A stretch of DNA of 39,378 nt. Origin: a virus. Taxonomy: Duplodnaviria > Caudoviricetes. Shown here piece by piece: positions 2,827 to 39,378 of this stretch; positions within the stretch are counted from its first letter, which is position 1; every line of letters starts with the position of its first letter. The translations under genes and the position numbers were made by a program. The notes below the pieces were generated by a model that did no database searches, was not told where the DNA came from, and was given only the letters and a program-made list of their open reading frames with translations. Location: IMG/VR virus record IMGVR_UViG_3300025835_000012, positions 1 through 39,378 of that record, one strand, 5' to 3'.

Positions 2827-2855
2827 AGTGTATACACTTAGTTTACAACTGTCAA
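2827..2855 (-). promoter_or_regulatory. Sigma70-like promoter with an overlapping palindromic operator
   Basis: TTGACA (2855-2850), 17 bp, TACACT (2832-2827); perfect palindrome AGTGTATACACT at 2827-2838. Confidence 0.75.
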
Positions 2856-3082
2856 TCTTTTATATACATTTTTTCAAAGTCTTCTACGGGAATCCCTATT
2901 GAACGGGTGATAGTTTTCAACTCACGTGCTACTTGATCTGGAACGGGGTACTTGCCAGACTCAATATGCTTGAGCTGTCCTTCTGTGAGCGACAGATACC
3001 GGACGAATTGCGGAAGCGAGAGATTGAGTTTTTTACGTAGCCAGCGTGGAAACTCTTTATGCGTGAAAGGAAATAATTCCAT
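2852..3082 (-). CDS. XRE-family HTH protein (76 aa)
   Basis: LRKKLNLSLPQFVRYLSLTEGQLKHIESGKYPVP HTH_3-like pattern; start at ATG 3082. Confidence 0.75.
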   Translation of the reverse strand: MELFPFTHKEFPRWLRKKLNLSLPQFVRYLSLTEGQLKHIESGKYPVPDQVARELKTITRSIGIPVEDFEKMYIKD

Positions 3083-3464
3083 AGAAAGCAAGACAGAAAA
3101 AGATAAAAGTGAGTAGCCCAAACACGCCAACAAGGATTCGTTGTGTTGTTCTCGTCGTCTTGATCTGTGGTTTTTCGTTGTATATCGTGATAATCTTGTT
3201 TTTGAGTTTTTGTACGATCTCTTCGTGGACGTTGCGTCGTGGTGTATTCGGATAGTTCGGGTGGTCCATGTGAAGGAGAATATAATAATCTCCGGTGGTA
3301 TACCCTAGTTGTATAAGAACTTTGAGAAGAGTTGTATATGTGAGTTGCCTGTCACGCTGCATGATCCTTTGTGCTGTTGTGCGCGACGTGACATCACGTA
3401 GTGTAAGATGTTTTCTGCGGCATAGCTCTTCGATAATCGCACACAAAACATTTTTTCGGTCCAT
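3057..3464 (-). CDS. Putative HTH-like protein with a C-terminal transmembrane helix
   Basis: Cro/CI-like helical N-terminus (IIEELCRRKHLTLRDV...LTYTTLLKVLIQLG); hydrophobic C-terminus ILVGVFGLLTFIFFCLAFYGII. Confidence 0.6.
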   Translation of the reverse strand: MDRKNVLCAIIEELCRRKHLTLRDVTSRTTAQRIMQRDRQLTYTTLLKVLIQLGYTTGDYYILLHMDHPNYPNTPRRNVHEEIVQKLKNKIITIYNEKPQIKTTRTTQRILVGVFGLLTFIFFCLAFYGIISFHA

Positions 3465-3491
3465 GGGAAGATGGAGAGAGAGTAAAAGTAT

Positions 3492-4142
3492 TTATTCTGT
3501 GATGATTTCAAAACGTTTCAACACACCGGGGCTGTACGCATTCGCCATACCGTGCCACTTCATACCGTCTCGCGACCGCCAGTCTCTCCATCTCGCGGAA
3601 AAAAGTACATCATTTACATCAGCAACAGCACGAAAATCACGACAACCTTTCTCGATTTGTTTTTCGATGCTGTGAAAATCTTGAGAACGTACAAACGCAA
3701 TATTGTCTTTATACCGCTTGTTTCCAGTGAACCACTGGAACAAGCCATGATCTGAAGTCGGCCCCTTTGCGTACATGTCCCACCGTGATTCTGCCTCGAC
3801 CATAAACACAGCATCAATACTGCCACACTCGCGAATAAGCTTTGGAATCATTTCATTGATTTTGGCAAGGTCCGCCTCAGTGTGGAACTTGTCCTTCAAC
3901 CTCTTCACTGACACAATCTTTTTGCCAACAAATGGGTTTTGGTAGTGTAACGTCGGTGCCTTGATATACCTCCGCAGTGTCACCGTTCCGTCGGCGGCCA
4001 AATAGCTCTGATATGCCGTGAACTTCACGGGCTTGTCTGCCACCGTGTGCGGTGAGGGCACAGGGAGAATCGCGGCGTTGCTCGCTGGAAGCCAGCATAG
4101 AACAACTCCCAGAAGAAACAGGTAAAAGAAAAATCGGTACAT
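3492..4142 (-). CDS. Secreted lytic transglycosylase (SLT/lysozyme-like fold)
   Basis: Signal peptide MYRFFFYLFLLGVVLCWLPASNA; SLT motif I (AES, catalytic Glu) and motif II (GLFQ). Confidence 0.75.
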   Translation of the reverse strand: MYRFFFYLFLLGVVLCWLPASNAAILPVPSPHTVADKPVKFTAYQSYLAADGTVTLRRYIKAPTLHYQNPFVGKKIVSVKRLKDKFHTEADLAKINEMIPKLIRECGSIDAVFMVEAESRWDMYAKGPTSDHGLFQWFTGNKRYKDNIAFVRSQDFHSIEKQIEKGCRDFRAVADVNDVLFSARWRDWRSRDGMKWHGMANAYSPGVLKRFEIITE

Positions 4143-4153
4143 AGAAAAGAAAG

Positions 4154-4504
4154 TTACGAGTTGAGAATACACCCGCGCACCGTACGTTTCCCCCACTGGT
4201 TTGCGGCAAGACGTCCAGCGTCACCGTGCCCCATCCAAATATCCAGACGATCGTACGCGTATCCACGCTTCCCAGCAGGAACAATCGCACCACCACGGTC
4301 TTCGACGGTATACGTCTTTCCGTTGATCTGGATCTTCGTGCCAAACGCGTACTTCGCAGGAGCCGCCATCATACCATCAAAAACAGGTTTACGGGACGCA
4401 CCATGTGTGCCGTTTCCTTGCAACCGTTTTTCTTTGGCAAGTGTTCCCATGTTATAGGCGCGTTGGCCGGGGAGAGGAGAATAGTATGCTGTCACCACAA
4501 ACAT
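4154..4504 (-). CDS. 3D (three-Asp, MltA-like) domain protein; probably the frameshift extension of the upstream ORF
   Basis: VTAYY...AAP..Y.FGTKI...VEDRGGAI...RLDIWMG...WGKR are 3D hallmarks; no signal peptide of its own; frame open through the slippery site at 4579-4573. Confidence 0.85.
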   Translation of the reverse strand: MFVVTAYYSPLPGQRAYNMGTLAKEKRLQGNGTHGASRKPVFDGMMAAPAKYAFGTKIQINGKTYTVEDRGGAIVPAGKRGYAYDRLDIWMGHGDAGRLAANQWGKRTVRGCILNS

Positions 4505-4566
4505 CTGGCATGTATCCAGTTCTGCTGCATGTGCTTGCGGGAGAATAGTTTTCGACGGTTTCGCGT

Positions 4567-4875
4567 CTATTCTTTTCCCAACGCATCGGACTTCGCACGC
4601 AACTCTTGGATTTTCGTTTTCCGTTCGTTGGCAAGTGCGTTGACCTCTGCTTGTTTCTGCTGTGCTTCAGTGATAATCTTCTGCTTCTCTGCCCACGTTG
4701 CTTGTAGGCGCTTCACTTCAATCTCCAGTTCTATTACTTGTGCTGCATACTCGCGGTACTTCGCTGCTGCTGGATCAAAGACATTGTTCCATGCTGCACC
4801 GCCGGCGACAAGAGCAATCGCGCTCGCGACGCCTACCGCACCCAAAACAAATTTGTTGAAAAGAATGTGTGTCAT
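4567..4875 (-). CDS. Membrane-anchored coiled-coil protein (102 aa)
   Basis: N-terminal hydrophobic helix FVLGAVGVASAIALVAGGAAW, then a heptad-rich Q/E/K/A segment; ends TTG GGA AAA GAA TAG. Confidence 0.75.
   Translation of the reverse strand: MTHILFNKFVLGAVGVASAIALVAGGAAWNNVFDPAAAKYREYAAQVIELEIEVKRLQATWAEKQKIITEAQQKQAEVNALANERKTKIQELRAKSDALGKE
4573..4579 (-). other. Candidate -1 programmed frameshift heptamer G_GGA_AAA
   Basis: X_XXY_YYZ in the correct phase, one sense codon before the stop; the -1 frame is the 3D-domain frame. Confidence 0.7.
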
Positions 4876-4882
4876 GTTTGTA

Positions 4883-5242
4883 TTATTGTAAAGGAATGAA
4901 CACGCCTGCAACATGCAGGATACTCATCAGTACCACACCAAGGAACACCACCCATGCAACGATATTGGTCCAGTCTATAGAGGGGAGAGATCGTCCTACA
5001 GGACGTTTCGCCCATTGATCTTTTTCCGACTGTGGGATTACCTGCATCATGTGTTTCGCCATAAGATTCTGCACATCGCGCAGTATCAGTGGGATATACT
5101 TCTTCCCGTATTTTGTGGCCGGGTTCAACCGTTGTGACATAGCACCTTCACTGATCCCGTACATAGACGCAAGATCTCTTTGTGTGAGTTTTAAGATTGC
5201 CATGTCACAGACGAGCAGTGCCTTTTTTTGTTGAATAGACAT
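4883..5242 (-). CDS. HTH protein with a C-terminal transmembrane helix (119 aa)
   Basis: LTQRDLASMYGISEGAMSQRLN is a clear Cro-like HTH; C-terminal IVAWVVFLGVVLMSILHVAGVFI; TAATG coupling with the upstream gene. Confidence 0.8.
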   Translation of the reverse strand: MSIQQKKALLVCDMAILKLTQRDLASMYGISEGAMSQRLNPATKYGKKYIPLILRDVQNLMAKHMMQVIPQSEKDQWAKRPVGRSLPSIDWTNIVAWVVFLGVVLMSILHVAGVFIPLQ

Positions 5243-5484
5243 TAGATACGAGAGAAAAAAGAAGTATTTACATAATCCATCGCGGGGTTGTAGAACCGCT
5301 GGAAGAAATCTTCCTTCGTGCTCCATACACCGAGATGTGAAAAATCACCAAACAACTCCTCGCCGTCTTCAAACGTATACGGCTCGACTGGTGCTCCTTC
5401 GCGACGTGTTGCTTCGAGCAGTCCGCGCATATATAGCACGAGCTGGTCATAAACCACGGTCTCCACACGAGTTTTTTTGTCCAT
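5242..5484 (-). CDS. Hypothetical protein (80 aa), first gene of the leftward arm
   Basis: ATG at 5484, downstream of the leftward promoter; stop overlaps the next start. Confidence 0.65.
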   Translation of the reverse strand: MDKKTRVETVVYDQLVLYMRGLLEATRREGAPVEPYTFEDGEELFGDFSHLGVWSTKEDFFQRFYNPAMDYVNTSFFSRI

Positions 5485-5516: not shown

Positions 5517-5545
5517 ATCGTAGCAAACACCCTCCGAATTGTCAA
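5517..5545 (-). promoter_or_regulatory. Leftward early promoter
   Basis: TTGACA (5545-5540), 17 bp, TACGAT (5522-5517) with an extended TGn motif. Confidence 0.75.
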
Positions 5546-5573: not shown

Positions 5574-5617
5574 TTGACAACAAAGGAGAGCATCTATAGG
5601 ATAAGGGTGTTCCTTAT
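5574..5617 (+). promoter_or_regulatory. Rightward early promoter with an inverted repeat at the start site
   Basis: TTGACA (5574-5579), 17 bp, TAGGAT (5597-5602); ATAAGG-N5-CCTTAT at 5601-5617. Confidence 0.75.
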
Positions 5618-23734: not shown

Positions 23735-26296
23735 ATGGCAGATAAGTATACGGTCCAGCCGGGTGATACCGTCGCAGGAATCGCACAAAAAGTGACGAGT
23801 GACCCTCTTGTTCAAGAGACACTGAAGCGCACGGGTATCTCCAATTTACTTCCCGGGCAAGAGATCCCTGTTCCCGCGCCCACAACAGGTGGAGTGACGA
23901 CGCCTCCTCCTTTGGAATTTGGTGCGCCTGTTGCTGCTGCTACACCCGGACTAGGGACGGTCACGCCTCCTGCTCCTACAGATACAGGACGGACACTTGC
24001 ACAGCTTCCTGTCGTAGGACAACCTCCTGCGCCGACGTACGAGAAACCTGCAATGAAAGGAGGCCAACAGACTTTTGATTTGTTCAACCGTCTTGTTTCT
24101 GGACAGGTAAAACCTGAAGGACAAACACCTGCGACCGTTGCGGAACAGGAAGCGTTCACGATGTACGGCAATTACCAGAAGTACAACACGGCAGACTCGA
24201 AGACATTATTTGACGCTATCCAGAAGGGCGAGATCACGCCCGATCCAAGCAACGTCCTTTGGCGTGCTATTAGTGCAGGTGGTGAACCGACGCCACAGAT
24301 GGTGGAGGCTTTCGGGTGGTGGAAGATGGCACAAGAACGGAACGCTGCGGGGAAACGTCCAGCGGATCCTTTCCTTGGTGGTGCGTTCCCGAAGCCTGCG
24401 AATCTTGATGAGGCCGACGCGCTCTTGAACGACGACCAGAAACGTATGAGTGAAGGCGATGGAGATACGACGGGGGCGATGGTCAATGAAGACCCTACAG
24501 CAACAAGTTTGTCCGGTGATGAGTACAGCAAGTATGAAAGCGAACTCCGTGCGATGTTGAATATCGCTGCACCTGCTGCGCCTGAGTATGAGAAGAATCT
24601 TCTCGCTTTACGTGGCCAGTACGGGGTCACAGCGCTTGAGTCTGACTTGGATACACTGCAAAAAGAATACGCGGATATGGAAGCTATTACCCGCCAGCGT
24701 TTACAGTATCAGACCGACCAACCTGTCGCGATGAACGTGATCTCTGGGCGTATGACTGAAGTCCAGCGCCAGCAGAAAGAACGGCTTGATTACCTTGGAC
24801 GTGAGATACAGTACCGGAACGATATGATCCAGACGGCGAATAGCGCGATCTCGATGATTATGAACGCAAAGCAGATGGATTATGGCGTTGCACGCCAGCA
24901 GTGGGAAGACGGTGTGAATGCTGCGAAAGGACTCTTGCAAGAGTTTGGCGCGATGCGGCAGGCAGAGATGGACGACGCAAATGCACGTCGTGATGACGCG
25001 CGTGCGGTATTGACAACGTACTACAACAACCTGACGGAAGGTACGATGAGTGCCGCTGATATGACACCGTCGGAGCAAATACAGGTAGCAAAGCTAGAAC
25101 TACAAGCAGGGATGCCTGTCGGGACGTTCGCGAATTTGCGTAGTAAGAATCCTACGATGGATGTCCGCACACAGGTAGAACGGCATGACGCTGCGGGGAA
25201 TAAGTATTTTGATATTGTGATGCAGGATAAGCGCACGGGGAAGGTGAGTATCCAGACCATCAAGGCAGGTTTTGATGCAGAGAAAGCTATGGGACTTGCA
25301 AAGGACGAGTTGGATATGATGAAGACCGTTGGCGACATCGCATACCGTGACGTGGAGACACAGTTGAAACAAGATGAGCTTTTGTATGATAAGCCGCTTG
25401 ACCGTGAGAATGTCCGCTCACAGATATTCAACCGTTCCGTGGACACACAGAAAGCACAGTATGAGATGGCTACAGACTATAATGTGAGTGGTCCTGCGGC
25501 GAACGCGAACACGTCGGATTACTTCAAGAACTATGGTGCTATCACTGGTCCGAACGGTAGCCCACTTTGGAAGTACGGGCTCGACGTGGATTTAAAGAAA
25601 GGAGATCCTGTTTACGCACCTGTCACGGGTGAAGTGGTCAAGGTAGGCACGAATGGTGGATTTGGCCAGCAGGTGCAGATCAAGGATGCACAAGGGAATC
25701 TTGTATGGCTTTCGCATCTTGATGGTGCGAGTGTACAAGTCGGCCAGAAAGTGAGTGCTGGTGCGCAAGTAGGTATTGGTGGCAACACTGGTAATACGAT
25801 CAAAGGCAAAGGCGGTGATGGATCACACTTGGATATAACGGTCAAGCGTCCTGATGGATCATACTTCTCTGCCCCTGATGTCCAGAATTATATCAGTAAG
25901 AACTACGCCGGAGAGGTAGGACGTGGCACGTCGGTCACGAAAAACGCGAATGCGAAGTCTGCAACAAAGACAGAGACGGAGAAGATGCTACGGGAGGAGT
26001 ATGCTGGGTACATCAAAAGCGAAAATATTGTTGGGCCTGACGGGAAGATAAGCCCGAACGTGTACAACAACATGCGTCAAGTTTGGACACAACAAGGTTT
26101 GGACCCGACTGCGTTTGATGATACGTTTGGTATGTACGCGAACACACAACATATCAATGACTATAACATAGGAACTACGGCACAAGTCGTGAAGAAGAAC
26201 ACTGCGTATGTTGGTGCAACAAGTGCTGCGGATAAACTCGCACAGGACGCACAATCTGCGGCAAAAAAAGCTATTACCTCTCTTTCCGGTAACTAA
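23735..26296 (+). CDS. Internal virion/ejection protein with an N-terminal LysM and an M23-like domain
   Basis: YTVQPGDTVAGIA...LLPGQEI (LysM); helical middle; GLD...VYAPVTGEV...GGFG...SHL...GNTGN...SHL (M23/LytM fold). Confidence 0.8.
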   Translation: MADKYTVQPGDTVAGIAQKVTSDPLVQETLKRTGISNLLPGQEIPVPAPTTGGVTTPPPLEFGAPVAAATPGLGTVTPPAPTDTGRTLAQLPVVGQPPAPTYEKPAMKGGQQTFDLFNRLVSGQVKPEGQTPATVAEQEAFTMYGNYQKYNTADSKTLFDAIQKGEITPDPSNVLWRAISAGGEPTPQMVEAFGWWKMAQERNAAGKRPADPFLGGAFPKPANLDEADALLNDDQKRMSEGDGDTTGAMVNEDPTATSLSGDEYSKYESELRAMLNIAAPAAPEYEKNLLALRGQYGVTALESDLDTLQKEYADMEAITRQRLQYQTDQPVAMNVISGRMTEVQRQQKERLDYLGREIQYRNDMIQTANSAISMIMNAKQMDYGVARQQWEDGVNAAKGLLQEFGAMRQAEMDDANARRDDARAVLTTYYNNLTEGTMSAADMTPSEQIQVAKLELQAGMPVGTFANLRSKNPTMDVRTQVERHDAAGNKYFDIVMQDKRTGKVSIQTIKAGFDAEKAMGLAKDELDMMKTVGDIAYRDVETQLKQDELLYDKPLDRENVRSQIFNRSVDTQKAQYEMATDYNVSGPAANANTSDYFKNYGAITGPNGSPLWKYGLDVDLKKGDPVYAPVTGEVVKVGTNGGFGQQVQIKDAQGNLVWLSHLDGASVQVGQKVSAGAQVGIGGNTGNTIKGKGGDGSHLDITVKRPDGSYFSAPDVQNYISKNYAGEVGRGTSVTKNANAKSATKTETEKMLREEYAGYIKSENIVGPDGKISPNVYNNMRQVWTQQGLDPTAFDDTFGMYANTQHINDYNIGTTAQVVKKNTAYVGATSAADKLAQDAQSAAKKAITSLSGN

Positions 26297-26298
26297 CC

Positions 26299-29200
26299 AT
26301 GTCTGAACAAGAATTTCTCAAGAAGCTGAGTACAAAGTACAATACGCCGATTGTTCCGCCTGTCGTCGCGCCAAAGGTGAAATCAACGAACCAGCAAGGG
26401 ATGGCGACGTCTAGTACACCTACAAAGGTAAAAACAACAACTGCTGAATCGCTCAAGCAAGAACTCCGTGCGTTGCCGTTTGCTGCACGTGAAGCGCTGA
26501 GAAAGAACGCGTTTGTTGACCAGCAGGGGATGATCAACTTGCCGTCGATGGACGCGGAAGAGTTGGGGAAATTTGGAGGACTGAAATTCTCTGAACAAGA
26601 GTGGACTCAGAACTATGCGTCTGTCTACGCGGAAGGACAAACTATTGGTCCTGCAACGGGGACATACGAGAGATTGCCGGAGAATGTGTTTCCAGAGGAC
26701 CCGTATAGTGAAGAGTTTATTGTCCGAGGCGAAGCGGAGCGCAACGCCGCAGATCGTCGTACACGCGTACAACAAGCAGAACAACAGGCGGGACTTGGAT
26801 ATATTGATTTGCTTCGTAGTGCAAAGCCAGTCGAAGACCCATACCGTGCGTTTGCATGGAATGACCCGTTGTCGTATATCGACCAGATGTCTCGTGCTGG
26901 TGATGTGCTCAACCGTGCAACACGTCGTGCTGGTGTTGAAGCGGTCCGTGGGATAGCAGGTACAGTAGAAACAATTGCTGGAGAAAATCCGTATTTACAG
27001 TTCGCACGGAACTACGCTGAGCGTATCAATACAGATCTTGGCGTATTTATGAAGTCACGTCCGGATGTCTTCCAGAAATACGATACGCAGAAATCGTTTA
27101 TGGAAGGCGGCTATGCAGATCCAACGTATTATTTAGACGCGATTGGAAGTGCTGTTCCGCACATGGTTGGTGCGCTTGGTGCGTCTATCGCTGGTGCTGC
27201 CGCTACAGGAAGTCCTGTAGGTGGTGCTGTTGCTGCGTTTACGTACGGTGCGAGTGTCGAGACGGGAAGTATGTACAATGAGATGTTAGACCGTGGGTTT
27301 AACTTGGATCAAGCACGTACTGCTGCTGCGGTATATGGTAGTGTCGCCGGTGCGTTGGATAGTGTTGTACCGGGAGAGATTGGTGGAAAGATTATGTCGA
27401 TGAATGCACGAAAGATTATTGACGAAGCAGCACGACAAGAAGTAAAACGCGGTGTTCTTGGTATGGTAGGAAAAGGTGGTTTGACCATGTTAAAAGAAGG
27501 AACAACAGAAGCGATGCAGGAGCTTGCAAACAATGTCACGATTTCATTTTACGACAAGTCACAGTCATGGTGGGAGAATCTTCCTGACGCGTTTGTTGGT
27601 GGTATGGTAGGTGGAGCATTGTTTGGCGCTGTCGACGTTGCGACTGATGGGACGGTAGACACCAACCTTCGCAAACCACCGCTCCAAGGAGACGACGGTG
27701 CGCCTGTCCAGCAGGTATCTGCGGAACCTGTTGAACCTATTGGACAAGTAGAACCTACACCTGCGGGAACACCACGTGAATCCCTTGAACAAGAGATCAA
27801 TACATTGTTTAAATCTGCTCGTGCAGAGGAAGCTGCGATCCAGATTGGTGAGACGATTCTTGCACAAGACGGAGACAACGCGGTCATTGCAGAGGCAGTA
27901 CAAGACGCCCGTGAGTCACTCCGGAAGTATGACGCTGAAGCGAAGTTGATTCTGGAAAAGTATGCCCGGGACAGCGCACAACCTGTTGTCGCGAATGAGA
28001 ATGTCCAGATCACGCTTGGTACACTACCTGATGGGCGGTTTGTTGCGTCCGGAGACATCACTATTGATGGTACAGGGTACTCAGTACCCTTTGATGTCAC
28101 GAACGCACAGCAGATGAAAGGAGAGGCTATAGCGTCGGTAGTAACTGACATGAACACGTGGATGATCGACCAGCTTAGTACAGAGGGGATTACCAATGAT
28201 GCTGCGGTGAAGAACGTTGTGGACACGTTGTCGAACACAGACACGTTGTATAGTAATATGCAGGACTTTGTCGCTGCGAATCAAGAGGCAGTCTTGTATG
28301 CACAGGACGCGATGACCGCAGAGGACTTTCAAGCGACCATGCAAGACGTTGCGCCGATCAATGAGAATATCGACCTGAATACATTCTTCAAGAAAGCGAC
28401 GAGCGCTGATGCGGTGTACCTCACGAAGGCCGCTGCGAAACAAGTGGCACAGGATCTTGCTGGTGATCTCGGTGTAGAAGTCCGGTTTGTTGATGAGATA
28501 GCGACGAACAAGCGAGCGTTGGGACGGTTTGTGCAGGACGTCTACGGTGGAGTGGTACAGCCCGGAGGTGCGATAGAGATGCGTGCAGAGGGTGATCGTA
28601 CACAGACAGGTGACGCGGTGATCCGTATGAGTACACCATACCATGAAGCTGCGCACGCGTACTTCCGCACCCTGTTACTCCCTGAAGAGCAGAAAGCTAT
28701 TTTGGACGAGCTTCGTACAGAGAAACGCAAGGAAAGTATTTCTGATGCAGAGGCAGAAGAGATCCTTGTCGAGGACCTGAAGAACACCGTGTTCAAGAAA
28801 AAGAAACGTGAGACACGGTACGGGAAGATCCTTGCACGTTTGATCGAGCTGACAGAGCGTATGATAAAATGGCTTGGTTTTGATCCTATGAGTAAGGTTG
28901 ACCAGTTCTATGAAGACGTCTTATCTAAGAAGCGTCCTTCCGAGAAACGTGCCGCAACACTTGCACGTCGTCGTCAAGGACTCAACGATGTCCGACAGGA
29001 GTATTTTCAAGAGCCTACAAGACTCACGTCAAAGTATCTCAAGTTCAAAGAGATTGCAGGTAAGGAGTTTGTTTCCTATCAGCAGGCGATGAATGCGGTC
29101 AAGGGCGCAGGCTTGAAGCAGGCGGAGGCGGATATTATTACCGCTGTCCTGGAGACACAGTTCAAAGACCAGAAGAAGATCAGCGTTGCGAATCTGACGG

Positions 29201-32200
29201 ATGCTATCATTGGCGAACTTCTGCCCTTGAGGGTATTGGATGCTCCTACGTATGCGAAGTACGGGCTAGAGAATGTCGGCTTGCAGGATAGCGACGATGC
29301 CGTGACACATATTTACGAGACACCCGTACGTCATAATTATGGTGGCCATTTTGATTCTAATAGTCTATTCGGCCATACCCGTATTGCTGATAATGGTAAT
29401 ACTAGGGCGATAACGGAGGTGCAAAGTGACTTCTTCCAGAAGTTACGTGATGGTATACCAAGGTTGGCGACACTTGCTGTCCGTGTACGTAGGGACCAGG
29501 CGGCGGTGGATTACATCAAGAGTTACAAACCAAAGGACGGCAAAGACAGTTCCTATGATGTAGGGCGCGATCTGCTTGGTGTAATCGGGTACGATGATTT
29601 CCAGGTTATTAAAGATAAGAATGTTCCTGATATGCTCGCGGCAATCTTAAAGATCAAGGAGAGTGATCTTGAGTCAAGTCGTGAAGATCTTGATGCTCTG
29701 GAGAGCGGTCTAAAAACACTCGCACCGTATGCGAATATCTGGCACGAGCGTATGATTAAGGAGGAAATACGTCTTGCAGCTATAGATGGCATAAAGACGT
29801 TCCGTGTGCCAACTCCTCGGACTCTTGCTTCTATTGAAGGGTACGAGGGAACCACAACAGAGGTTCCTTACGACTACAATGACGAGGAATTTGTTGATGG
29901 TGTATTGCCATTAGGCGCTGTGATTAGTATGGACGGTGATGATTATTACGTTGTTGAGTCACGGGCGGATAATATGGTTGTTGTCCCGAAGAGTGTTATG
30001 ACAGAGGTTGAGAACAGCAATTCTTATTCTTTGGATGTACTTGGCGAGCAGTTTTTCTTTCCTCGAAATTATGCAGAGACAGTACCACAGCCTGCTTCTT
30101 ATGCAGCGGGCAAGGCGTTCAGTATTGATAATCTTCCGAGCCAGCAGATGGCGGTGGTAAACTTCTACCAGTCCAAAGTCAATCCATACTTCAAAAAGCT
30201 ACGCAAGGACGCTCGCGAGGTGACGGACGAAAACGGATTTACGTGGCTAGAGACTGATATTACAGCGGCAGATAATGCGGCGGTGGAGGCGTTTCAGACG
30301 GAGGAGCCGGTGATGTACCGTGGTGGAAAGATACAGTCTATAAGTGAACTTGATCTTACAGCAAGCGCTGATCTTGTTCGACAGGGCGTATTGAATCTTG
30401 GTAGTGTTTTTGCAGAAGGTCCCGGGTACTACTTTTCTTCAGACAAAGAAGACGCGAACCGTTATGGTGACGTTGTCCTTAAAGTGAAAGGCAAGGAAGG
30501 CGTGCGTATTCTCACAAAGGACGACAAGCTGACACAGCGAGAGGTAAGTCGGATATTAGATAGCATTGACGAAGAGGTACTAGAAGGTGCCGCAAGTAAT
30601 TGGTCGGAGAGTCTTTTCGCAGGGCGACAAGCATTGATGCGTGAGATTATGAACGGTGACAGCGCACTAGATCAGTTGATGTCCGTATGGGCGGATGTGT
30701 ACTACTGGCAGAACCCAGATCAGTTCCTAGAGGTGATGCAGAAAAACGGTATAGACGGTATTCGTGTAGATAAGCCGGGTGATGTACAGCACACCATTAT
30801 GTACAACAAGGAAGCATTGATCGAACTAGCTGATGAAGTCGAAGCCTTCCAAGAGTTTGACGAAGTAGAGATGCCCGGAGGACAGCTTGATCCTATGAAG
30901 CTCGTTGGATACCAGTCGTTCCAGCCGCTACACCAGCAGCACTATGTGGGTATAGCACGGGAGATTGTGGAGTCGACGAAACTTGCAAAGAACGGTGGCG
31001 ACGATCTAGTGCGTGCAGCAAACACGGTAGAACTTGCGTATAAATACGAAGAGTTCCTTTTGCGCACGTATGGGTTTGGATACGAGGACCGGTTGCGTAG
31101 TCTTCTGGATACGCTGGAAGGGAACGTAGAAATGTACATGAGTATGGAGGTAGATACATACGGTGATGGGAACAATGCTACATCGACGATTACTCCTGCA
31201 CGTGTTGCTTCGATTGCAAAGTACGTGGGTAAAAACCTTGGTACCCTTTCTCGTGCGTACCGTGCGGTAACAACACGCAAGGTTGTTGTGGGTGATATAA
31301 CTGATTTGCGCGACGTCCAGAGCACACTCGTGAGCTACGCTGCAAAACGTGGAGAAGTAGAACCTATTGTGAGACAGGCTATAGATGTGTTGAAAATCGT
31401 TGAGTCTATGATGGAAGACGCGTTGATTGATACGAGTGACTTGGATCAAGCATACGAGGGTGTGCAAAACATGGTGCAACGTGCGATGGGAGAGACTGGG
31501 CGAGTACGTCTCAATGCAATCAATGAAGAAGTCAACGCCCATAGTGTGGCGATGGACAAAGTGCGTAAACAAAGCGAGCGTACGGATATGGTGAAGAACC
31601 GGTTGTTGACGTTGCGCAAGAAACGTATCGAACGTGAAGAGTTGCGATTGGGGCGTTCACTGGAAAAGAATACGAAGCGCCGTATCCACCAGAATATTAT
31701 GAAGAACGGAGCGCCGTCTATCACGATGACACAGCGTGAGTTCTACGGTGCGCAGGCAAAGACCGCAGAAGAAGTAGCACGAGTGACGAAGAAGGAAATG
31801 CAGGCACAGTATCGGCTCGCGAAACAACGTGCAGACTTGATGCAGAAGATTGACAACGTGAAGAAGAAGTACAAAGCCGCGATCAAAGAAGGAAAACTGG
31901 TTGATGTACAGTATGCACAGACCATTCTTGACTTGTTTGATTCTTTCCAAAAATCACAGCCGTCACAAGCGACACTGGAGAAACTAGATGCTCTTTTAGA
32001 GATGCAGAAGAAAGCACAGTGGTCACAGGTTGGTACACACTACGAGAGTACGCAGGACGATAAGGAGTCTATCTTCACCAAGGAAGACGCACAGGCGATG
32101 GACGATTATATATCCGCAGTCCAGAAGCGTCTCACACAACGTGCGTTGAGTAGTATGACGAACGACGAGTTGTCGGAGTTGTACAACCATATCCAGTCGG

Positions 32201-34560
32201 TCATTGAAGAAGCACGGGTATCCTTCCAGATTGGGAAATACGTGAAAGAAGAAACAAGAAAAGCACGTATTGCAGCAGTAACGACGCAGACTGTATCGTT
32301 GGATGATAAGAAAATCACGCAGCTTGTTGAGAAAGCGTTTGGTGAATCGTATGGAAGAATGTCAGGGAACTTGAAGCAGAACGCGCAGGACTACCTTTTG
32401 GCGCCTGTTGTTGTTGATGAAATGGATGGAGGTAAGTTTGGACAAGGTGTGAATAGTGAGATGCTTCGTGACTTGAATCAAGGTGAGTACGCGTACAGTG
32501 AGGAGAAAGAACGATTTGCCAATGTCTTGATGCACAAGTACCACGAGCTTGGGTTACCGGAGAGTATGACGGAAGAAGAGCAGGCGTTTGTCTCATTGTA
32601 TATTCGTATGCGTGAAGAGAACGGACAGTTCCCTGCGCAGTTAATTCTTGATCAACATTTTGGCGGAGAAGTTCCTACACAAGCTGGTCGTTTGAACGCG
32701 TCGCAAGCAGAAGCGTTGGTCGATGCCTTACTAGAAACACGGGAAGAATTTGAGGTCACGAACCGTCAAGCTGGTACGTGGCAGGCTCGCACAAATAAAA
32801 TCTTCCCACGGGCGAAGAATTATATTATGAAAAGCGCGTTCAAAAATCCACCGAAAGACTGGGTAGATGCGGAAGACGGCGGCATAGATATGATGCAGAC
32901 GTTTGGACGTGGTGGTACAGGTGTATCTGATAAGTTCTCTTTGGAACGTCGTGCGGAGAATGAGAACCTTGTCCCACGCGTTGACTTTATGAATCTCTAC
33001 TTAGAGACGGTCGATCATGCGATGTGGTATATCCATATGCAGCCGTCGATTGATATGGTGCAGCAAGTGGTCGGGTCGAAAGAATACACGCAACAGGCGG
33101 GTAAAATTGCGAGTACATGGTGGAAGACAACGTTGATGTTGACTGCACAGCGTGGAGCACGCGTTGGCGCACGGAAGATCGCCGCAGTGGATAAGTTTCG
33201 CAGTAATGTCACGACGGGTATTCTTGCGTTCAAACTCAGTACAATCTTAATGCAAGGCACACAGCCTATTACCGCGTCATTGGTCGCATTACCGTATGTT
33301 GGCCCTCGTGGAGCTGCACGGATTTTGTTTGAGTCTATGAAGTCTATGATGCCCGGGTATGTGAAGCGTATGTCTGAACAGTCGGGAAGTGTTGTCGCTC
33401 GTGGTAGCACGATGGGGTCGTACGATGTACAAGATGCACGTCGACTGATGATGCGAGACAAAAACCGGGTACGAAACTTTGCTTCGACGACATTGAGTCA
33501 AGCGGCAGAATACGGTATGTGGACGATGCAACGGCTTGACGTTGGATTCTTTGCGGCAGCACGTGAAGGTGCGTACCAAGAACTTCTTGCACAAGGGAAG
33601 AGCGAAGAAGAAGCGGCACGTATGGCAGATTATATCGCAGAGGCGGGGAACAGTTCTGGCCTTGTCACGATGCGTCCGCACGTGTATTCCGATGGTAGCT
33701 ATACACGGCTTTTCTTGATGTTGCAGTCATTCTCTATCGGATGGTTTTCCACAATGAGTATGTTGGTACGTGGTACGGTTTCTTCTGGTAGCACTCGTCA
33801 ACGACTCTACGGCGCGGTGGCAGCACTTTCTGCACCGATACTACAGTCGATGTTCGCGGATCTTGTTGCTCAGTTGACACGTGGTGGAGATGATGAAGAA
33901 GAGAAGAACCTTGCACAGCGTCTTATGAGTGAGTACCTCTACAACGTGCCGTTGTTCGGTAGTGTCGCACGTGGCGTATTTGAGTACGGAAAGACAGAAA
34001 TGACGAACAGCGCCGCACTGAGCACACTCGGAAAACTGGTGGAAGGGTTGACTACTGCTATGAATACAGACGGAGAGCGACAAAAGAAAGCACTTATGCG
34101 TGCGTCGGAAGCGTTCTTTGTTTCTATGGGTATACCGTTTAGTGCGCAGGGGTTTGACTTACTAGAGCCTTTGTTGAAACGTCCGGACGAAGAAGTGAAA
34201 GATTTTTTACAAGAGAACGGTAAAAAACTTTTACATTCGACAGCGACAGATAGCGAGATTGACGACGCAGTAGAAAACGCGTACATGCGTGCGTATGGTG
34301 ATACACTCCCCGAGATGACAACGAGTCAAAAAACCGCAGCACGCAAGAGTGTCATAAAAGCAATGGCCGTTGCAGACAAGAATAAATACGTTGGCATGGT
34401 GGCCAAATCAACGAAGAACGACGACAAGGCACGTGTACTTCTTGAAGCAAAAGGCGCATTGAGTGTAGGTGAGTTTGATTCGATGGTAGAGCGGTTACAA
34501 GAACTTCGACTCCTCTCTGAAGATGGATATAAAAAATATCTTGAACTGCAATATAAGTAA
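26299..34560 (+). CDS. Giant (2753 aa) polyvalent ejection protein with zincin-like peptidase and ADP-ribosyltransferase-like modules
   Basis: Gly/Ala-rich hydrophobic N-terminal region; HEAAH at 28642-28656; EVQSD at 29416-29430; YRG...GPGYYFS...ANRYG...GIDGI at about 30310-30825; long helical C-terminus. Confidence 0.8.
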   Translation: MSEQEFLKKLSTKYNTPIVPPVVAPKVKSTNQQGMATSSTPTKVKTTTAESLKQELRALPFAAREALRKNAFVDQQGMINLPSMDAEELGKFGGLKFSEQEWTQNYASVYAEGQTIGPATGTYERLPENVFPEDPYSEEFIVRGEAERNAADRRTRVQQAEQQAGLGYIDLLRSAKPVEDPYRAFAWNDPLSYIDQMSRAGDVLNRATRRAGVEAVRGIAGTVETIAGENPYLQFARNYAERINTDLGVFMKSRPDVFQKYDTQKSFMEGGYADPTYYLDAIGSAVPHMVGALGASIAGAAATGSPVGGAVAAFTYGASVETGSMYNEMLDRGFNLDQARTAAAVYGSVAGALDSVVPGEIGGKIMSMNARKIIDEAARQEVKRGVLGMVGKGGLTMLKEGTTEAMQELANNVTISFYDKSQSWWENLPDAFVGGMVGGALFGAVDVATDGTVDTNLRKPPLQGDDGAPVQQVSAEPVEPIGQVEPTPAGTPRESLEQEINTLFKSARAEEAAIQIGETILAQDGDNAVIAEAVQDARESLRKYDAEAKLILEKYARDSAQPVVANENVQITLGTLPDGRFVASGDITIDGTGYSVPFDVTNAQQMKGEAIASVVTDMNTWMIDQLSTEGITNDAAVKNVVDTLSNTDTLYSNMQDFVAANQEAVLYAQDAMTAEDFQATMQDVAPINENIDLNTFFKKATSADAVYLTKAAAKQVAQDLAGDLGVEVRFVDEIATNKRALGRFVQDVYGGVVQPGGAIEMRAEGDRTQTGDAVIRMSTPYHEAAHAYFRTLLLPEEQKAILDELRTEKRKESISDAEAEEILVEDLKNTVFKKKKRETRYGKILARLIELTERMIKWLGFDPMSKVDQFYEDVLSKKRPSEKRAATLARRRQGLNDVRQEYFQEPTRLTSKYLKFKEIAGKEFVSYQQAMNAVKGAGLKQAEADIITAVLETQFKDQKKISVANLTDAIIGELLPLRVLDAPTYAKYGLENVGLQDSDDAVTHIYETPVRHNYGGHFDSNSLFGHTRIADNGNTRAITEVQSDFFQKLRDGIPRLATLAVRVRRDQAAVDYIKSYKPKDGKDSSYDVGRDLLGVIGYDDFQVIKDKNVPDMLAAILKIKESDLESSREDLDALESGLKTLAPYANIWHERMIKEEIRLAAIDGIKTFRVPTPRTLASIEGYEGTTTEVPYDYNDEEFVDGVLPLGAVISMDGDDYYVVESRADNMVVVPKSVMTEVENSNSYSLDVLGEQFFFPRNYAETVPQPASYAAGKAFSIDNLPSQQMAVVNFYQSKVNPYFKKLRKDAREVTDENGFTWLETDITAADNAAVEAFQTEEPVMYRGGKIQSISELDLTASADLVRQGVLNLGSVFAEGPGYYFSSDKEDANRYGDVVLKVKGKEGVRILTKDDKLTQREVSRILDSIDEEVLEGAASNWSESLFAGRQALMREIMNGDSALDQLMSVWADVYYWQNPDQFLEVMQKNGIDGIRVDKPGDVQHTIMYNKEALIELADEVEAFQEFDEVEMPGGQLDPMKLVGYQSFQPLHQQHYVGIAREIVESTKLAKNGGDDLVRAANTVELAYKYEEFLLRTYGFGYEDRLRSLLDTLEGNVEMYMSMEVDTYGDGNNATSTITPARVASIAKYVGKNLGTLSRAYRAVTTRKVVVGDITDLRDVQSTLVSYAAKRGEVEPIVRQAIDVLKIVESMMEDALIDTSDLDQAYEGVQNMVQRAMGETGRVRLNAINEEVNAHSVAMDKVRKQSERTDMVKNRLLTLRKKRIEREELRLGRSLEKNTKRRIHQNIMKNGAPSITMTQREFYGAQAKTAEEVARVTKKEMQAQYRLAKQRADLMQKIDNVKKKYKAAIKEGKLVDVQYAQTILDLFDSFQKSQPSQATLEKLDALLEMQKKAQWSQVGTHYESTQDDKESIFTKEDAQAMDDYISAVQKRLTQRALSSMTNDELSELYNHIQSVIEEARVSFQIGKYVKEETRKARIAAVTTQTVSLDDKKITQLVEKAFGESYGRMSGNLKQNAQDYLLAPVVVDEMDGGKFGQGVNSEMLRDLNQGEYAYSEEKERFANVLMHKYHELGLPESMTEEEQAFVSLYIRMREENGQFPAQLILDQHFGGEVPTQAGRLNASQAEALVDALLETREEFEVTNRQAGTWQARTNKIFPRAKNYIMKSAFKNPPKDWVDAEDGGIDMMQTFGRGGTGVSDKFSLERRAENENLVPRVDFMNLYLETVDHAMWYIHMQPSIDMVQQVVGSKEYTQQAGKIASTWWKTTLMLTAQRGARVGARKIAAVDKFRSNVTTGILAFKLSTILMQGTQPITASLVALPYVGPRGAARILFESMKSMMPGYVKRMSEQSGSVVARGSTMGSYDVQDARRLMMRDKNRVRNFASTTLSQAAEYGMWTMQRLDVGFFAAAREGAYQELLAQGKSEEEAARMADYIAEAGNSSGLVTMRPHVYSDGSYTRLFLMLQSFSIGWFSTMSMLVRGTVSSGSTRQRLYGAVAALSAPILQSMFADLVAQLTRGGDDEEEKNLAQRLMSEYLYNVPLFGSVARGVFEYGKTEMTNSAALSTLGKLVEGLTTAMNTDGERQKKALMRASEAFFVSMGIPFSAQGFDLLEPLLKRPDEEVKDFLQENGKKLLHSTATDSEIDDAVENAYMRAYGDTLPEMTTSQKTAARKSVIKAMAVADKNKYVGMVAKSTKNDDKARVLLEAKGALSVGEFDSMVERLQELRLLSEDGYKKYLELQYK

Positions 34561-34599: not shown

Positions 34600-35271
34600 A
34601 TGGGGAGTACCAATAGACCATCATGGATCGTCGTCCACCATACTGCTGTATCGTACGATAAGAATCCAAGCCAACTCAGTGCGACGAACACCTTTCATAA
34701 AAACAAAGGGTTCCCGCAGTCGTCGCTTGGATTTTTTGTCGGGTATCACGCGATGGTAGAAAAAGACGGGCGTGTTATTATCACCCGCAAGGATAGTGAT
34801 ATAGGCGCACATACGTCGCAAGACAACATGAACTTTAACTCTGTGGCAATCTGTTTCACCGGGAACTTTGATAAGGAAGAACCAACACTGGAGCAGTGCA
34901 AGGCAGGACTATCGTGGATTAAAGGCAAGATGTCTAGCCTGCATATCCCCGCATCGAAAATCAAACCGCACCGGAACTGGGCGCCAAAGACGTGCTGGGG
35001 TAGCAAGGTCCCTGATGATATTATTTCTTATCTTGAACAACGTTGTATGGTCGTCGATGAAACACCTTCTTCTTGGGCGCTTCCTTCTTTTGCGAAAGCA
35101 GCAAAACTCGGCATGAGTGATGCACGTCCGAAAGAAGAAGTGGGGACAAGCCGTCTCCGGTTTATCCTCAATAAGTTGTATCAGAAACAGGTGATTGAAG
35201 AAAAAGACGCGCCTGTCACCTACGAAGAATATATCCACGCCCTCGACAAAGCGGGCGTATTACCTGCATAA
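34600..35271 (+). CDS. Endolysin, N-acetylmuramoyl-L-alanine amidase (Amidase_2, T7-lysozyme-like)
   Basis: IVVHHTA, GYH, GAH, N..SVAICFTGNF and PHR...KTCWG motifs; C-terminal SLH-like segment (SSWA...RPKE). Confidence 0.9.
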   Translation: MGSTNRPSWIVVHHTAVSYDKNPSQLSATNTFHKNKGFPQSSLGFFVGYHAMVEKDGRVIITRKDSDIGAHTSQDNMNFNSVAICFTGNFDKEEPTLEQCKAGLSWIKGKMSSLHIPASKIKPHRNWAPKTCWGSKVPDDIISYLEQRCMVVDETPSSWALPSFAKAAKLGMSDARPKEEVGTSRLRFILNKLYQKQVIEEKDAPVTYEEYIHALDKAGVLPA

Positions 35272-36308: not shown

Positions 36309-36647
36309 GAGTTCAACGCGAGGGTTTGTTTTGTCTGTCTTGTAGATATGGATCGTTGATGCGATTTCTTTTCGTGTGTCGTTGCGCAGTACACCAGATT
36401 CGACAAGGCCGTCAAAGAAAAACTTTGTAGCAAACGAAACATTGTCCGGGTCCTTTCGTTCCGTTTTGGTATACCAAACGAAGACGGTATGGAGAGGGTA
36501 TCTGGTCAATGGATCAAAGTCTTGTGCTATATACTGCGCACGTGCTGTCTCTTCTTTCTTGATCTTTGCTCCTATGAACCGGTTGCGTCGTTCTGCGTTC
36601 ACGTATTCGTTGAGGGATATGTACTCCCCCGGGAATATGATCGTCAT
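36246..36647 (-). CDS. rusA: RusA-like Holliday junction resolvase
   Basis: SLNEY, KDPDNV...K...DGLVESGVLRND and NPRVE motifs. Confidence 0.85.
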   Translation of the reverse strand: MTIIFPGEYISLNEYVNAERRNRFIGAKIKKEETARAQYIAQDFDPLTRYPLHTVFVWYTKTERKDPDNVSFATKFFFDGLVESGVLRNDTRKEIASTIHIYKTDKTNPRVELLLVETFVEALQHAAYIVDIV

Positions 36648-37144
36648 TTTTTGAAGTTGATACGAGATTGTAAGTCCTCGTTTTCTGCTTTGAGCTCTTC
36701 GTTCTCTATTGCAAGGACGCGGATCGTGCGAAAGTTAGACATGACGGTAAGTACCAGCATCTCCTTGAACTCTTCTCCTACTTTATCGATGAGGTTGGTG
36801 ACGTACTCTTCCATGAGTATCTCGTCAATCTCTGCGATTTGAGCCTTGGCTATCTTTGTTTTTTCTTTGTCGCGGATATGTTTCTTAATGAAGTTTGCAA
36901 GATGGATACGTCGCCCCACGAGCTTGCTATCTTTGGCGTTGCATACTGCATGGAGATACTCGTGGAACGCCCTGTATAAGATTATGTAGTTTTCTTGCAA
37001 GTCCGGACCAGAAAACAAGCGAGGCACCACGTGGTGAGCAGCTAGATCGTGGCGTTTCCCTGTGATCTCACATTGTGGCGTAGGCATTTGTTCTAGCTTC
37101 TTTTCCCGTTCCTCTCGGTGTTGTTTCCCGTATCCATTCCTCAT
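36644..37144 (-). CDS. HNH endonuclease-like protein with a C-terminal coiled coil
   Basis: CEITG...HHVVPR..GP...NYI.L...H..LH; ATGA overlap with rusA. Confidence 0.7.
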   Translation of the reverse strand: MRNGYGKQHREEREKKLEQMPTPQCEITGKRHDLAAHHVVPRLFSGPDLQENYIILYRAFHEYLHAVCNAKDSKLVGRRIHLANFIKKHIRDKEKTKIAKAQIAEIDEILMEEYVTNLIDKVGEEFKEMLVLTVMSNFRTIRVLAIENEELKAENEDLQSRINFKK

Positions 37145-39272: not shown

Positions 39273-39302
39273 GAATAGTTTTTTGTCATACTCAGGACAA
39301 AA
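39273..39302 (-). ncRNA. Small H-type pseudoknot motif, copy 1
   Basis: TTTTGTC-CTGAGTAT-GACAAAA-AAC-TATTC; stem 1 has 7 bp and loop GAGTA pairs with TATTC. Confidence 0.55.
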
Positions 39303-39304
39303 CT

Positions 39305-39378
39305 TTAGCCGTTGCCGTTGCCGTAGCCGTAGCCGTTGCCGTCGCCGTCGCCGTCGCCGTAGCCGTTGCCGTAGCCGT
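39305..39378 (-). CDS. Gly-rich repeat protein, 3' part
   Basis: Reads ...GYGNGYGDGDGDGNGYGYGNGNG-TAA, in frame with 1-82. Confidence 0.75.
   Translation of the reverse strand, partial: GYGNGYGDGDGDGNGYGYGNGNG
39308..39378. repeat. Hexamer microsatellite (GCCGT[A/T/C])n at the right end
   Basis: Directly visible. Confidence 0.95.

What the first reader, a model, noticed from the sequence alone, without database searches (positions are those of the whole stretch)
2852..5484. Early cell-envelope operon: membrane-tethered HTH proteins flanking two exported peptidoglycan glycosidases
Seen: first operon from the leftward promoter, in order: hypothetical, HTH+TM, TM+coiled coil (3D by frameshift), signal peptide+SLT, HTH-like+TM, soluble XRE HTH. 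It is far from, and opposite in orientation to, the amidase lysis cassette and the virion genes. Known: 3D and SLT domains cleave or bind peptidoglycan glycan; tethered HTH regulators link envelope state to transcription. Inference: a non-lytic wall-remodelling or sensing system, for example superinfection exclusion, division or dormancy control, DNA tethering, or action on the wall of the host's own host if the host is an episymbiont. I know of no described phage system with this composition.
Basis: partly seen in the sequence, partly recalled or inferred. Interest (0 to 1): 0.85.

Follow-up and report, generated by a model that had tools for sequence, protein, structure and literature searches.

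The report
Frameshift-dosed wall enzyme in Patescibacteria phages
A phage that likely infects an ultrasmall Patescibacteria host carries a gene for a predicted membrane-anchored cell-wall-cutting enzyme that is split one base out of frame at a classic slippery sequence, and the same kind of split recurs in 14 other loci, so ribosomes likely make mostly an enzyme-less anchor and only a little full enzyme, probably to loosen the host wall during infection without bursting it early.

Summary
The operon is real: seven leftward ORFs between two sigma-70-like promoter matches in a circular 39-kb phage, binned with a Gracilibacteria genome whose own 3D autolysin is 61% identical to the phage's. Its core is the membrane-stalk/3D gene. 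The 3D domain lies in the -1 frame behind G_GGA_AAA, 3 nt before the stalk's stop. Two other assemblies and two Logan contigs show no indel. Homologous stalks carry 3D, SLT-like or glucosaminidase-like heads in frame. In 14 other loci a membrane stalk overlaps an SLT-like domain, always in the -1 frame. Of 15 split loci, 10 have an X_XXY_YYZ heptamer near the stop (17 of 168 control ORFs). This is likely a programmed frameshift dosing an exported wall glycosidase. The neighbouring SLT-like gene is adjacent in one relative and probably three more. The HTH-membrane genes are weakly supported, lack a sensor domain and had no homologues in the loci read, so the tethered-regulator system is not supported. 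Exported early phage glycosidases are known (SPbeta YorM, kayvirus Tgl). This scan found the same frameshift before in other phage DNA (e1-1068127, e1-8104760); ten paper searches found no description. Function and frameshifting are inferred, not shown.

The parts
5517..5545 (-). sigma-70-like leftward promoter match (TTGACA-17-TACGAT, extended TG), back to back with a rightward one at 5574-5602 that faces recT/exo/ssb/dnaB
   Evidence: consensus match only; count not above shuffles; for the rightward genes
5242..5484 (-). 80-aa soluble ORF of no known family
   Evidence: no homologue
4883..5239 (-). 118-aa ORF: probable N-terminal HTH and a C-terminal TM (residues 97-115) with only 3 residues beyond it
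   Evidence: Pfam HTH_24 E 0.013, PHROG E 0.002, both weak; hydropathy
4567..4875 (-). 102-aa short form: N-terminal TM/signal anchor plus coiled-coil stalk, ending at TAG
   Evidence: homologous to the stalks of in-frame hydrolases P0139 (E 3e-9) and P0135 (E 8e-5)
4573..4579 (-). slippery heptamer G_GGA_AAA in register with the stalk frame, 3 nt before its stop; predicted -1 frameshift site
   Evidence: no indel in L001, L013, X1, X2
4517..4546 (-). conserved stalk-to-head linker (I-L-P-Q-A-x-A-x-E-L type) read in the -1 frame; the same motif follows the stalk in in-frame relatives
4154..4573 (-). 139-codon -1-frame extension: linker plus Gracilibacteria-type 3D (MltA/Sps-like) domain; predicted long form of 240 aa
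   Evidence: 8 synonymous and 2 non-synonymous codon changes in a low-depth variant
3492..4142 (-). 216-aa predicted secreted protein with an SLT/lysozyme-like domain; invariant Glu116 in A-E-S
3057..3464 (-). 135-aa ORF with a C-terminal TM (residues 110-128); HTH not supported by any library
2852..3082 (-). 76-aa soluble XRE/Cro-type HTH protein; its stop overlaps the next promoter match
   Evidence: Pfam HTH_19 E 4.8e-7
2827..2855 (-). second leftward promoter match (TTGACA-17-TACACT) that marks the start of the next gene run

Best explanation
The core of this early operon is a gene for a predicted membrane-anchored stalk whose wall-cutting 3D head lies in the -1 frame behind a slippery heptamer, so that ribosomes likely make mostly a 102-aa enzyme-less stalk and a minority 240-aa full enzyme, which with the neighbouring predicted secreted SLT-like enzyme probably loosens the host's own peptidoglycan at low dose during infection. 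Shown: the split, the heptamer, its presence in several assemblies, in-frame relatives with exchangeable heads, the -1 split in 14 other loci, and the retained catalytic residues. Inferred: that ribosomes shift there (about 0.85); that the long form is the minority (from the usual low efficiency of such sites, own knowledge); early expression by host polymerase; Sec export; activity on peptidoglycan; and the purpose, which is pre-weakening or enlarging the cell before the late amidase lyses it, with the frameshift keeping the dose sub-lethal (about 0.5). The HTH genes are most likely lineage-specific early regulators or host-takeover genes sharing the promoter.
For: Split: stalk stop at 4567, 3D frame at -1, G_GGA_AAA 3 nt before the stop; no gaps against L001, L013, X1, X2. 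In-frame relatives: L005/P0135 (glucosaminidase-like head), P0142 (3D head) and P0139 (SLT-like head); the P0139 and P0142 stalks are 92% identical over 83 residues. Recurrence: 10 of 14 IMG/VR SLT-like loci are split, 3 in frame, 1 spurious; L040 is split; in a later set, with the cut-offs already fixed, 3 of 11 were split, 6 in frame, 1 cut by a contig end, 1 spurious. All 15 splits are -1 and none +1. Heptamer within 24 nt of the stop: 10 of 15; the other 5 have T_TTT or A_AAG within 6 nt. Controls: 17 of 168 and 40 of 168 ORFs (Fisher p 1.6e-5 on the first 12). The 3D part is under purifying selection in a variant. The catalytic Asp (YuiC D162 equivalent) and the D151 equivalent are kept; Glu116 is invariant. 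Precedent: kayvirus Tgl is an early-promoter, secreted transglycosylase that assists lysis (PMC7150955). Amidase-like genes lie 1-2 kb from the gene in L010 and L072.
Against: There are no protein or ribosome data. The motif cut-offs were chosen after seeing the first 12 loci, and the 15 loci form only about 10 stalk groups. The window's downstream hairpin is no stronger than shuffles (z -0.7 to -1.3); only 3 of 12 sites have z below -2.4. The closest 3D relative (P0142) is in frame, and one extra base in the A run would explain the window alone as a recent mutation. 0 of 25 other viral 3D loci are split, so for the 3D head the window is my only case. The first of the three 3D aspartates is Ala. 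SLT fold matches are modest (best Z 5.7, rmsd 4.3, 118 aligned). In the window the genes are not beside the amidase. Nothing tested distinguishes action on the host's own wall from exclusion or from action on a partner cell.
Confidence: 0.47

Rival explanations
1. Same frameshift-dosed enzyme, but its job is superinfection exclusion or receptor remodelling: the abundant short stalk crowds or binds entry machinery in the membrane, and the enzymes alter the wall that incoming phage must cross.
For: Early-type promoter; the short form is a small single-pass membrane protein; many small TM-only ORFs flank the gene in relatives; the virion module has its own LysM+M23 hydrolase that must cross the wall.
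Against: Cutting the wall more simply helps than hinders entry (own knowledge). No integrase appeared among the PHROG hits, so a long lysogenic state is not evident. Heads with different chemistry are exchangeable, which fits general loosening better than a specific block.
Confidence: 0.17
2. The enzymes act outward on the wall of the bacterium that the Patescibacteria host parasitises, raising the nutrient and nucleotide flow to the infected cell.
For: The 3D head is 61% identical to a signal-peptide 3D + three PG-binding-domain protein in the binned Gracilibacteria genome, and named top hits are nearly all Gracilibacteria. Groundwater Gracilibacteria express transglycosylases proposed for host contact (PMC11452946). 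Splits occur in Gracilibacteria-class genomes, including code-25 ones.
Against: TM/coiled-coil-3D genes are common in phages of low-GC, apparently non-CPR hosts (host guess by eye), and earlier scan notes report the same frameshift in gut and rumen phages, where no partner cell is needed. The stalk of about 70 residues is short (about 10 nm, own estimate). Gracilibacteria make their own peptidoglycan, so a self substrate exists.
Confidence: 0.12
3. No programmed frameshift here: the window's gene is a recently broken or phase-variable copy (one A lost in a run), and the 3D part is silent or made alone from its internal ATG at 4504.
For: In-frame relatives exist; gene callers list the 116-aa 3D ORF separately; the local RNA structure is weak; the variant showing purifying selection does not span the junction.
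Against: 15 of 15 splits are -1, with motifs bunched at the stop. A related stalk family keeps U_UUU right before three different stop codons (L067, L076, L128). No length variant of the A run was seen in four other assemblies. A product from 4504 would have no export signal.
Confidence: 0.12
4. One reading: the HTH-membrane proteins, the XRE protein and both glycosidases form one conserved envelope-sensing circuit.
For: They share one promoter-bracketed run; unrelated TM-coiled-coil-HTH genes sit next to the split gene in L074 and L077 and, by eye, L132.
Against: No homologues in any locus read; one HTH is unsupported and the other weak; at most 7 residues lie beyond each TM; 15 of 17 TM-bearing neighbours scanned have no HTH.
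Confidence: 0.07
5. Dormancy or growth signalling: released muropeptides wake the host or keep it growing, as proposed for Rpf/Sps proteins.
For: The 3D head is Sps-like; Sps proteins support stationary-phase survival, and SPbeta carries one (PMC4499186, PMC1084345).
Against: No muropeptide sensor was looked for in the host; the exchange of heads that give different products argues against one specific signal.
Confidence: 0.05

Closest known systems
Kayvirus Tgl (secreted early lytic transglycosylase, accessory endolysin; PMC7150955, passages read)
   Same: Phage-encoded, signal peptide with A-x-A, lysozyme-like domain with conserved Glu, host-type promoter, separate from the main amidase-type endolysin.
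   Different: Tgl lies a few genes from lysK and is one uninterrupted ORF; here there are two enzymes, one of them frameshift-gated and membrane-anchored, in the early arm opposite the lysis genes, and no sequence homology was tested.
Sps/3D proteins: B. subtilis YuiC and prophage SPbeta YorM (PMC4499186, PMC1084345, passages read)
   Same: Minimal MltA-type 3D domain; profile match to YuiC at E 3e-7 with the catalytic Asp kept; a prophage-borne member is known.
   Different: The first Asp is replaced; Gracilibacteria-type insertions; reached only through a -1 frame; the head is exchangeable with SLT-like and glucosaminidase-like domains.
Phage tail-assembly-chaperone G/GT -1 frameshift (PRFect, PMC10885494, passages read; lambda site recalled)
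   Same: X_XXY_YYZ heptamer close to the 0-frame stop, giving a short and a long protein with a shared N-terminus; one relative uses G_GGA_AAG.
   Different: The gene is an exported wall enzyme in the early arm, not a tail chaperone; in PRFect's set 2397 of 2476 annotated joined genes are chaperones and 79 are hypothetical.
Gracilibacteria chromosomal signal-peptide-3D-PG_binding protein (L015)
   Same: 61% identity over 116 residues of the 3D domain.
   Different: The host protein is soluble-secreted with three C-terminal PG-binding domains; the phage version is N-terminally anchored on a stalk and has none.
Membrane-tethered one-component regulators (ToxR/CadC type; recalled)
   Same: A probable HTH and one TM in a single chain.
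   Different: No outside sensor domain; HTH class differs or is unproven; not conserved with the enzymes.

Membership tests
Programmed -1 ribosomal frameshift (X_XXY_YYZ class) | In-register heptamer inside the overlap of the 0 and -1 frames | tested here: met
   G_GGA_AAA at 4579-4573
Programmed -1 ribosomal frameshift (X_XXY_YYZ class) | Direction and position conserved across divergent sequences | tested here: met
   15 of 15 splits are -1; 10 of 15 heptamers vs 17 of 168 controls
Programmed -1 ribosomal frameshift (X_XXY_YYZ class) | 3' stimulatory hairpin or pseudoknot | tested here: inconclusive
   window z -0.7 to -1.3; 3 of 12 sites below -2.4; pseudoknots not modelled
Programmed -1 ribosomal frameshift (X_XXY_YYZ class) | Upstream internal Shine-Dalgarno stimulator | not tested
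   no scan run
Programmed -1 ribosomal frameshift (X_XXY_YYZ class) | Two protein products observed | not testable with these tools
   needs a reporter, proteomics or ribosome profiling
3D/Sps domain (PF06725, MltA-like) | Catalytic Asp (MltA D308, YuiC D162) and substrate-binding Asp (D297/D151) | tested here: met
   alignment to YuiC 4wli; residue roles from PMC4499186
3D/Sps domain (PF06725, MltA-like) | All three aspartates | tested here: not met
   the D129 equivalent is Ala, as in the host-type proteins aligned
3D/Sps domain (PF06725, MltA-like) | Pfam gathering score | tested here: not met
   15.5 bits vs cut-off 23.8; Atlas feature score 0.95 to a cluster with 3D on 14% of members
SLT / family-1 lytic transglycosylase (PF01464) | Catalytic Glu in E-S at a helix end, followed by a G-L-x-Q motif | tested here: met
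   E116, S119, D131, L134, Q136 invariant in 14 of 14; the Glu and Asp invariant in 18 of 18 wider members
SLT / family-1 lytic transglycosylase (PF01464) | Pfam gathering score | tested here: not met
   no hit for the window protein; distant relative P0153 passes (26.1 vs 21.3)
SLT / family-1 lytic transglycosylase (PF01464) | Lysozyme-like fold | tested here: inconclusive
   top VIA rows are lysozyme-superfamily but Z is at most 5.7 (rmsd 4.3, 118 aligned); Foldseek has none at E 0.001
Tgl-type secreted accessory endolysin | Signal peptide and host-type promoter | tested here: inconclusive
   hydrophobic N-terminus with A-x-A and a consensus promoter match only
Tgl-type secreted accessory endolysin | Located in the lysis module | tested here: not met
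   amidase at 34600-35271 on the other strand, about 7 kb away round the circle
Tgl-type secreted accessory endolysin | Muralytic activity and contribution to lysis | not testable with these tools
   needs assays
Membrane-tethered one-component regulator | DNA-binding domain plus one TM | tested here: inconclusive
   TM yes for both; HTH weak for the 118-aa and unsupported for the 135-aa protein
Membrane-tethered one-component regulator | Extracytoplasmic sensor domain | tested here: not met
   3 and 7 residues follow the TMs

The most novel reading that the evidence does not exclude
Phages of Patescibacteria have captured their host's parasitism-related surface autolysin, put it on a membrane stalk with swappable enzyme heads, and use a recurrent -1 frameshift as a dial, so that the infected episymbiont bores harder into its own bacterial host to feed phage replication: a viral gene that acts on a third organism's wall.
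Probability: 0.12. Interest if true: 0.88.

Novelty: new variant of a known kind. Interest (0 to 1): 0.66.

Why it matters
Annotated phage frameshifts are almost all in tail chaperones. A recurrent -1 site in an exported wall enzyme, kept across about ten stalk groups, two kinds of catalytic head and two genetic codes, would be a different use of recoding: setting the dose of a self-lethal enzyme, or the ratio of anchor to enzyme. It explains why databases hold many short 'signal-less' SLT and 3D ORFs next to orphan TM/coiled-coil ORFs. It also offers a cheap way to test recoding in Patescibacteria-type sequences, and it makes a standing question testable: why phages carry early, non-virion wall glycosidases (YorM, Tgl) at all.

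Tried and rejected
Assembly artefact: rejected; X1 and X2 may be the source samples and L004 is the window's own record. Stop readthrough of the stalk's TAG: the 0 frame hits another stop. Code 25 for this phage: several genes end in TGA and the binned genome's 3D gene reads under code 11. Rz/spanin reading: PHROG hits at E 0.001-0.008 cover only the coiled coil; set aside. CRISPR link to the binned genome: no spacer-like match, best E 0.08. The single-sequence fold of the 3D domain failed (pLDDT 38) and was not searched. Complex prediction of two stalks with the SLT-like protein gave no answer (score 0.02); this is no evidence either way. No RNA holder was listed. Runs X3 and X5-X8 do not bridge the junction, nor does X4. 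Scans that found only the phage itself or nothing; could not build patterns. Dropped before counting: L080 and L130 (spurious matches), L121 (contig edge), and self loci. Of 16 non-self genomes I read loci from 8; L065 and L066 were fetched but not read, and L058 was left unresolved. The SLT-domain tree is poorly resolved: split and in-frame rows interleave (10 changes, at least 3 forced; 311 of 500 shuffles as low), so I claim no order of events. One search was in the wrong frame and was not used. Paper searches found no description of this frameshift or operon. No supplementary files were read; the 79 hypothetical joined genes in PRFect and the RSA-ATP1 annotation table may bear on novelty.
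Full report
Setting. The window is a circular 39.4-kb tailed-phage genome (12-nt end overlap; CheckV 100%). It has recT, ssb, dnaB, terminase, portal, capsid, a LysM+M23 protein and an amidase on the + strand. The same phage occurs as a circular scaffold in a record titled Candidatus Gracilibacteria bacterium (L013; 6 mismatches, no gaps), and in groundwater runs. Named top hits of its 3D domain are nearly all Gracilibacteria, and the binned genome has its own signal-peptide-3D-PG-binding protein, 61% identical over 116 residues. A Gracilibacteria-class host is therefore likely but not proven: binning can mislead, and no spacer-like match was found.

Observation. The seven ORFs are there, in the order given, between promoter matches at 5545-5517 and 2855-2827 (matches not above shuffles). 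XRE is solid (E 5e-7). The first HTH+TM has only weak HTH hits, and the second has none in Pfam, PHROGs or NCBIfam. Both TMs are real but C-terminal, with 3 and 7 residues beyond them. The 216-aa protein has no family hit itself. Its 14-member family keeps A-E-S (Glu116) and D-x-x-L-x-Q, wider members hit SLT, and an AlphaFold model (pLDDT 78) matches lysozyme-superfamily folds only modestly (MltF Z 5.7, rmsd 4.3, 118 aligned; Foldseek none at E 0.001). The 3D domain misses the Pfam cut-off, but a profile aligns to YuiC at E 3e-7, keeping the catalytic D162 and D151 equivalents and replacing the D129 equivalent by Ala (roles from PMC4499186, passages).

The split gene. The 102-aa TM/coiled-coil ORF ends G_GGA_AAA GAA TAG; the linker and 3D domain follow in the -1 frame. 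L001, L013 and Logan contigs X1 and X2 have no indel. In L005 a homologous stalk, the same linker and a glucosaminidase-like head form one ORF upstream of the SLT orthologue, with a 51-aa TM ORF between them. P0142 has stalk-linker-3D in one frame, and P0139 has a stalk 92% identical to it (83 residues) with an SLT-like head. So stalk and head are one modular gene with exchangeable heads. A low-depth variant of the 3D part shows 8 synonymous and 2 non-synonymous codon changes, but it does not span the junction.

Recurrence. Searching Patescibacteria genomes with the wider SLT-like family (17 of 401 matched; 8 of 16 non-self loci read) gave L040, where a TM/coiled-coil ORF overlaps a start-less SLT-like domain in the -1 frame. 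An IMG/VR scan gave 14 loci: 10 split, 3 in frame, 1 spurious (six read under table 25, chosen by coding density). In these first 12 splits, window included, 8 have an in-register X_XXY_YYZ within 24 nt of the stop, and the other 4 have T_TTT or A_AAG within 6 nt. Control ORFs from the same loci gave 17 of 168 for the heptamer and 40 of 168 for either motif (Fisher p 1.6e-5 and 1.2e-7). Those cut-offs were set after seeing the data. A later set from Gracilibacteria-class genomes (11 of 401 matched) gave 3 splits, all -1 and all meeting the fixed rule, with 6 in frame, 1 truncated and 1 spurious. Total: 15 of 15 splits are -1, in about 10 stalk groups. Against: downstream structure is weak in the window; 0 of 25 other viral 3D loci are split; split and in-frame rows interleave on a poorly resolved tree.

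Co-conservation. The SLT-like gene and a stalk-hydrolase gene lie together in L005. Three more pairs share contig count and longest-contig length (P0011/P0136, P0014/P0016, P0166/P0137), which is indirect. The HTH-TM, 80-aa and XRE genes had no tblastn match in six phage records and four loci (a weak test, since these share few genes with the window). L005 has a 25-aa TM-only ORF upstream and an unrelated soluble ORF downstream. Small TM-only ORFs are frequent neighbours, and 2 of 17 scanned are unrelated TM-coiled-coil-HTH proteins.

Mechanism. Most likely the host polymerase transcribes the run early. Ribosomes mostly stop after the stalk and sometimes slip back one base to add the 3D head. 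The anchor and both enzymes leave by Sec and loosen the host's own peptidoglycan at a tolerated dose, before the late amidase acts. The frameshift is strongly indicated (about 0.85). The purpose is inference (about 0.5), resting on kayvirus Tgl (PMC7150955, passages), on the exchangeability of heads, and on amidase-like genes 1-2 kb away in L010 and L072. Rivals are exclusion (0.17), action on the episymbiont's partner (0.12; Gracilibacteria express transglycosylases and also make peptidoglycan, PMC11452946, passages), a merely broken gene (0.12), the sensing circuit (0.07) and dormancy signalling (0.05).

Known and new. Exported non-virion phage glycosidases are known: YorM (PMC1084345, passages) and Tgl. 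-1 frameshifts in phages are known mainly from tail chaperones (PMC10885494, passages). The searched passages of two Patescibacteria-phage papers mention no such gene (10.1101/2024.03.08.584096 and its journal version PMC13059738, and PMC12911398). Ten searches found no report of this frameshift (listings only, apart from the papers named). No supplements were read. Two earlier scan notes describe the same TM/coiled-coil-to-3D -1 split in other phages. I met them after my own counts, they are unchecked, and they are not used as support; one pointed me to YorM and YuiC. What this window adds is the Patescibacteria setting, SLT-like as well as 3D heads behind the shift, its use under two genetic codes, and direct evidence of head swapping on near-identical stalks.

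Verdict.

Noticed in passing
window 4517-4546 (-); P0015, P0016, P0135-P0140, P0142; L015 signal peptide: The linker after the stalk ends in P-x-A-x-A, like a signal-peptidase site and like the end of the host 3D protein's signal peptide, but it lies far from the membrane; it could release the enzyme head.
   Followed up: partly
L055, L056, L058, L060 (Patescibacteria genomes G550, G467, G511, G490): Chromosomal members of the same SLT-like family share a neighbourhood: an AbrB-like/Fic-Doc-like gene pair in all four, a SpoIID/LytB-like gene in three and an FtsB-like gene in two (labels by eye, recalled); G550 has two copies.
   Followed up: no
L074:3479-3922, L077:4648-5187, L132: TM-coiled-coil-HTH genes downstream of the split gene in one code-25 phage lineage; opposite topology to the window's HTH-TM proteins.
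   Followed up: partly
L067, L071, L076, L128, P0141: A stalk family with paired cysteines ends in C-D-F or C-S-F right at the shift site, with U_UUU before TAG, TGA or TAA; an in-frame member (P0141) carries a glucosaminidase-like head instead.
   Followed up: partly
P0015, P0016; L129: Stalk genes with two heads in series: an M23-like domain plus 3D (P0015/16) and an amidase-like domain plus SLT-like (L129); labels by eye.
   Followed up: no
window 39296-39378 and 1-69: Array of GCCGTT/GCCGTA/GCCGTC hexamers spanning the circular junction just after the DUF6948 gene; probably a low-complexity coding repeat.
   Followed up: no
window 23735-34560: An 853-aa LysM+M23 protein and a 2753-aa protein in the virion module; likely entry proteins, so the virion has its own wall hydrolase.
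   Followed up: no
L007, L008: A close relative (TerL 93%, capsid 98% for L007) in IMG/VR whose fetched DNA starts just before the terminase, so its early operon could not be read.
   Followed up: partly
window 36644-37144; L005:1972-2481; L072:3088-3579: A 166-aa protein with an HNH-like motif (by eye) is shared with L005 and L072, where it lies within 1 kb of the SLT-like gene.
   Followed up: no
L063 (G582): A Patescibacteria prophage-like region with recT, a replication gene, a TM-SLT-like gene in frame and small early genes: the same early-arm position without a split.
   Followed up: partly
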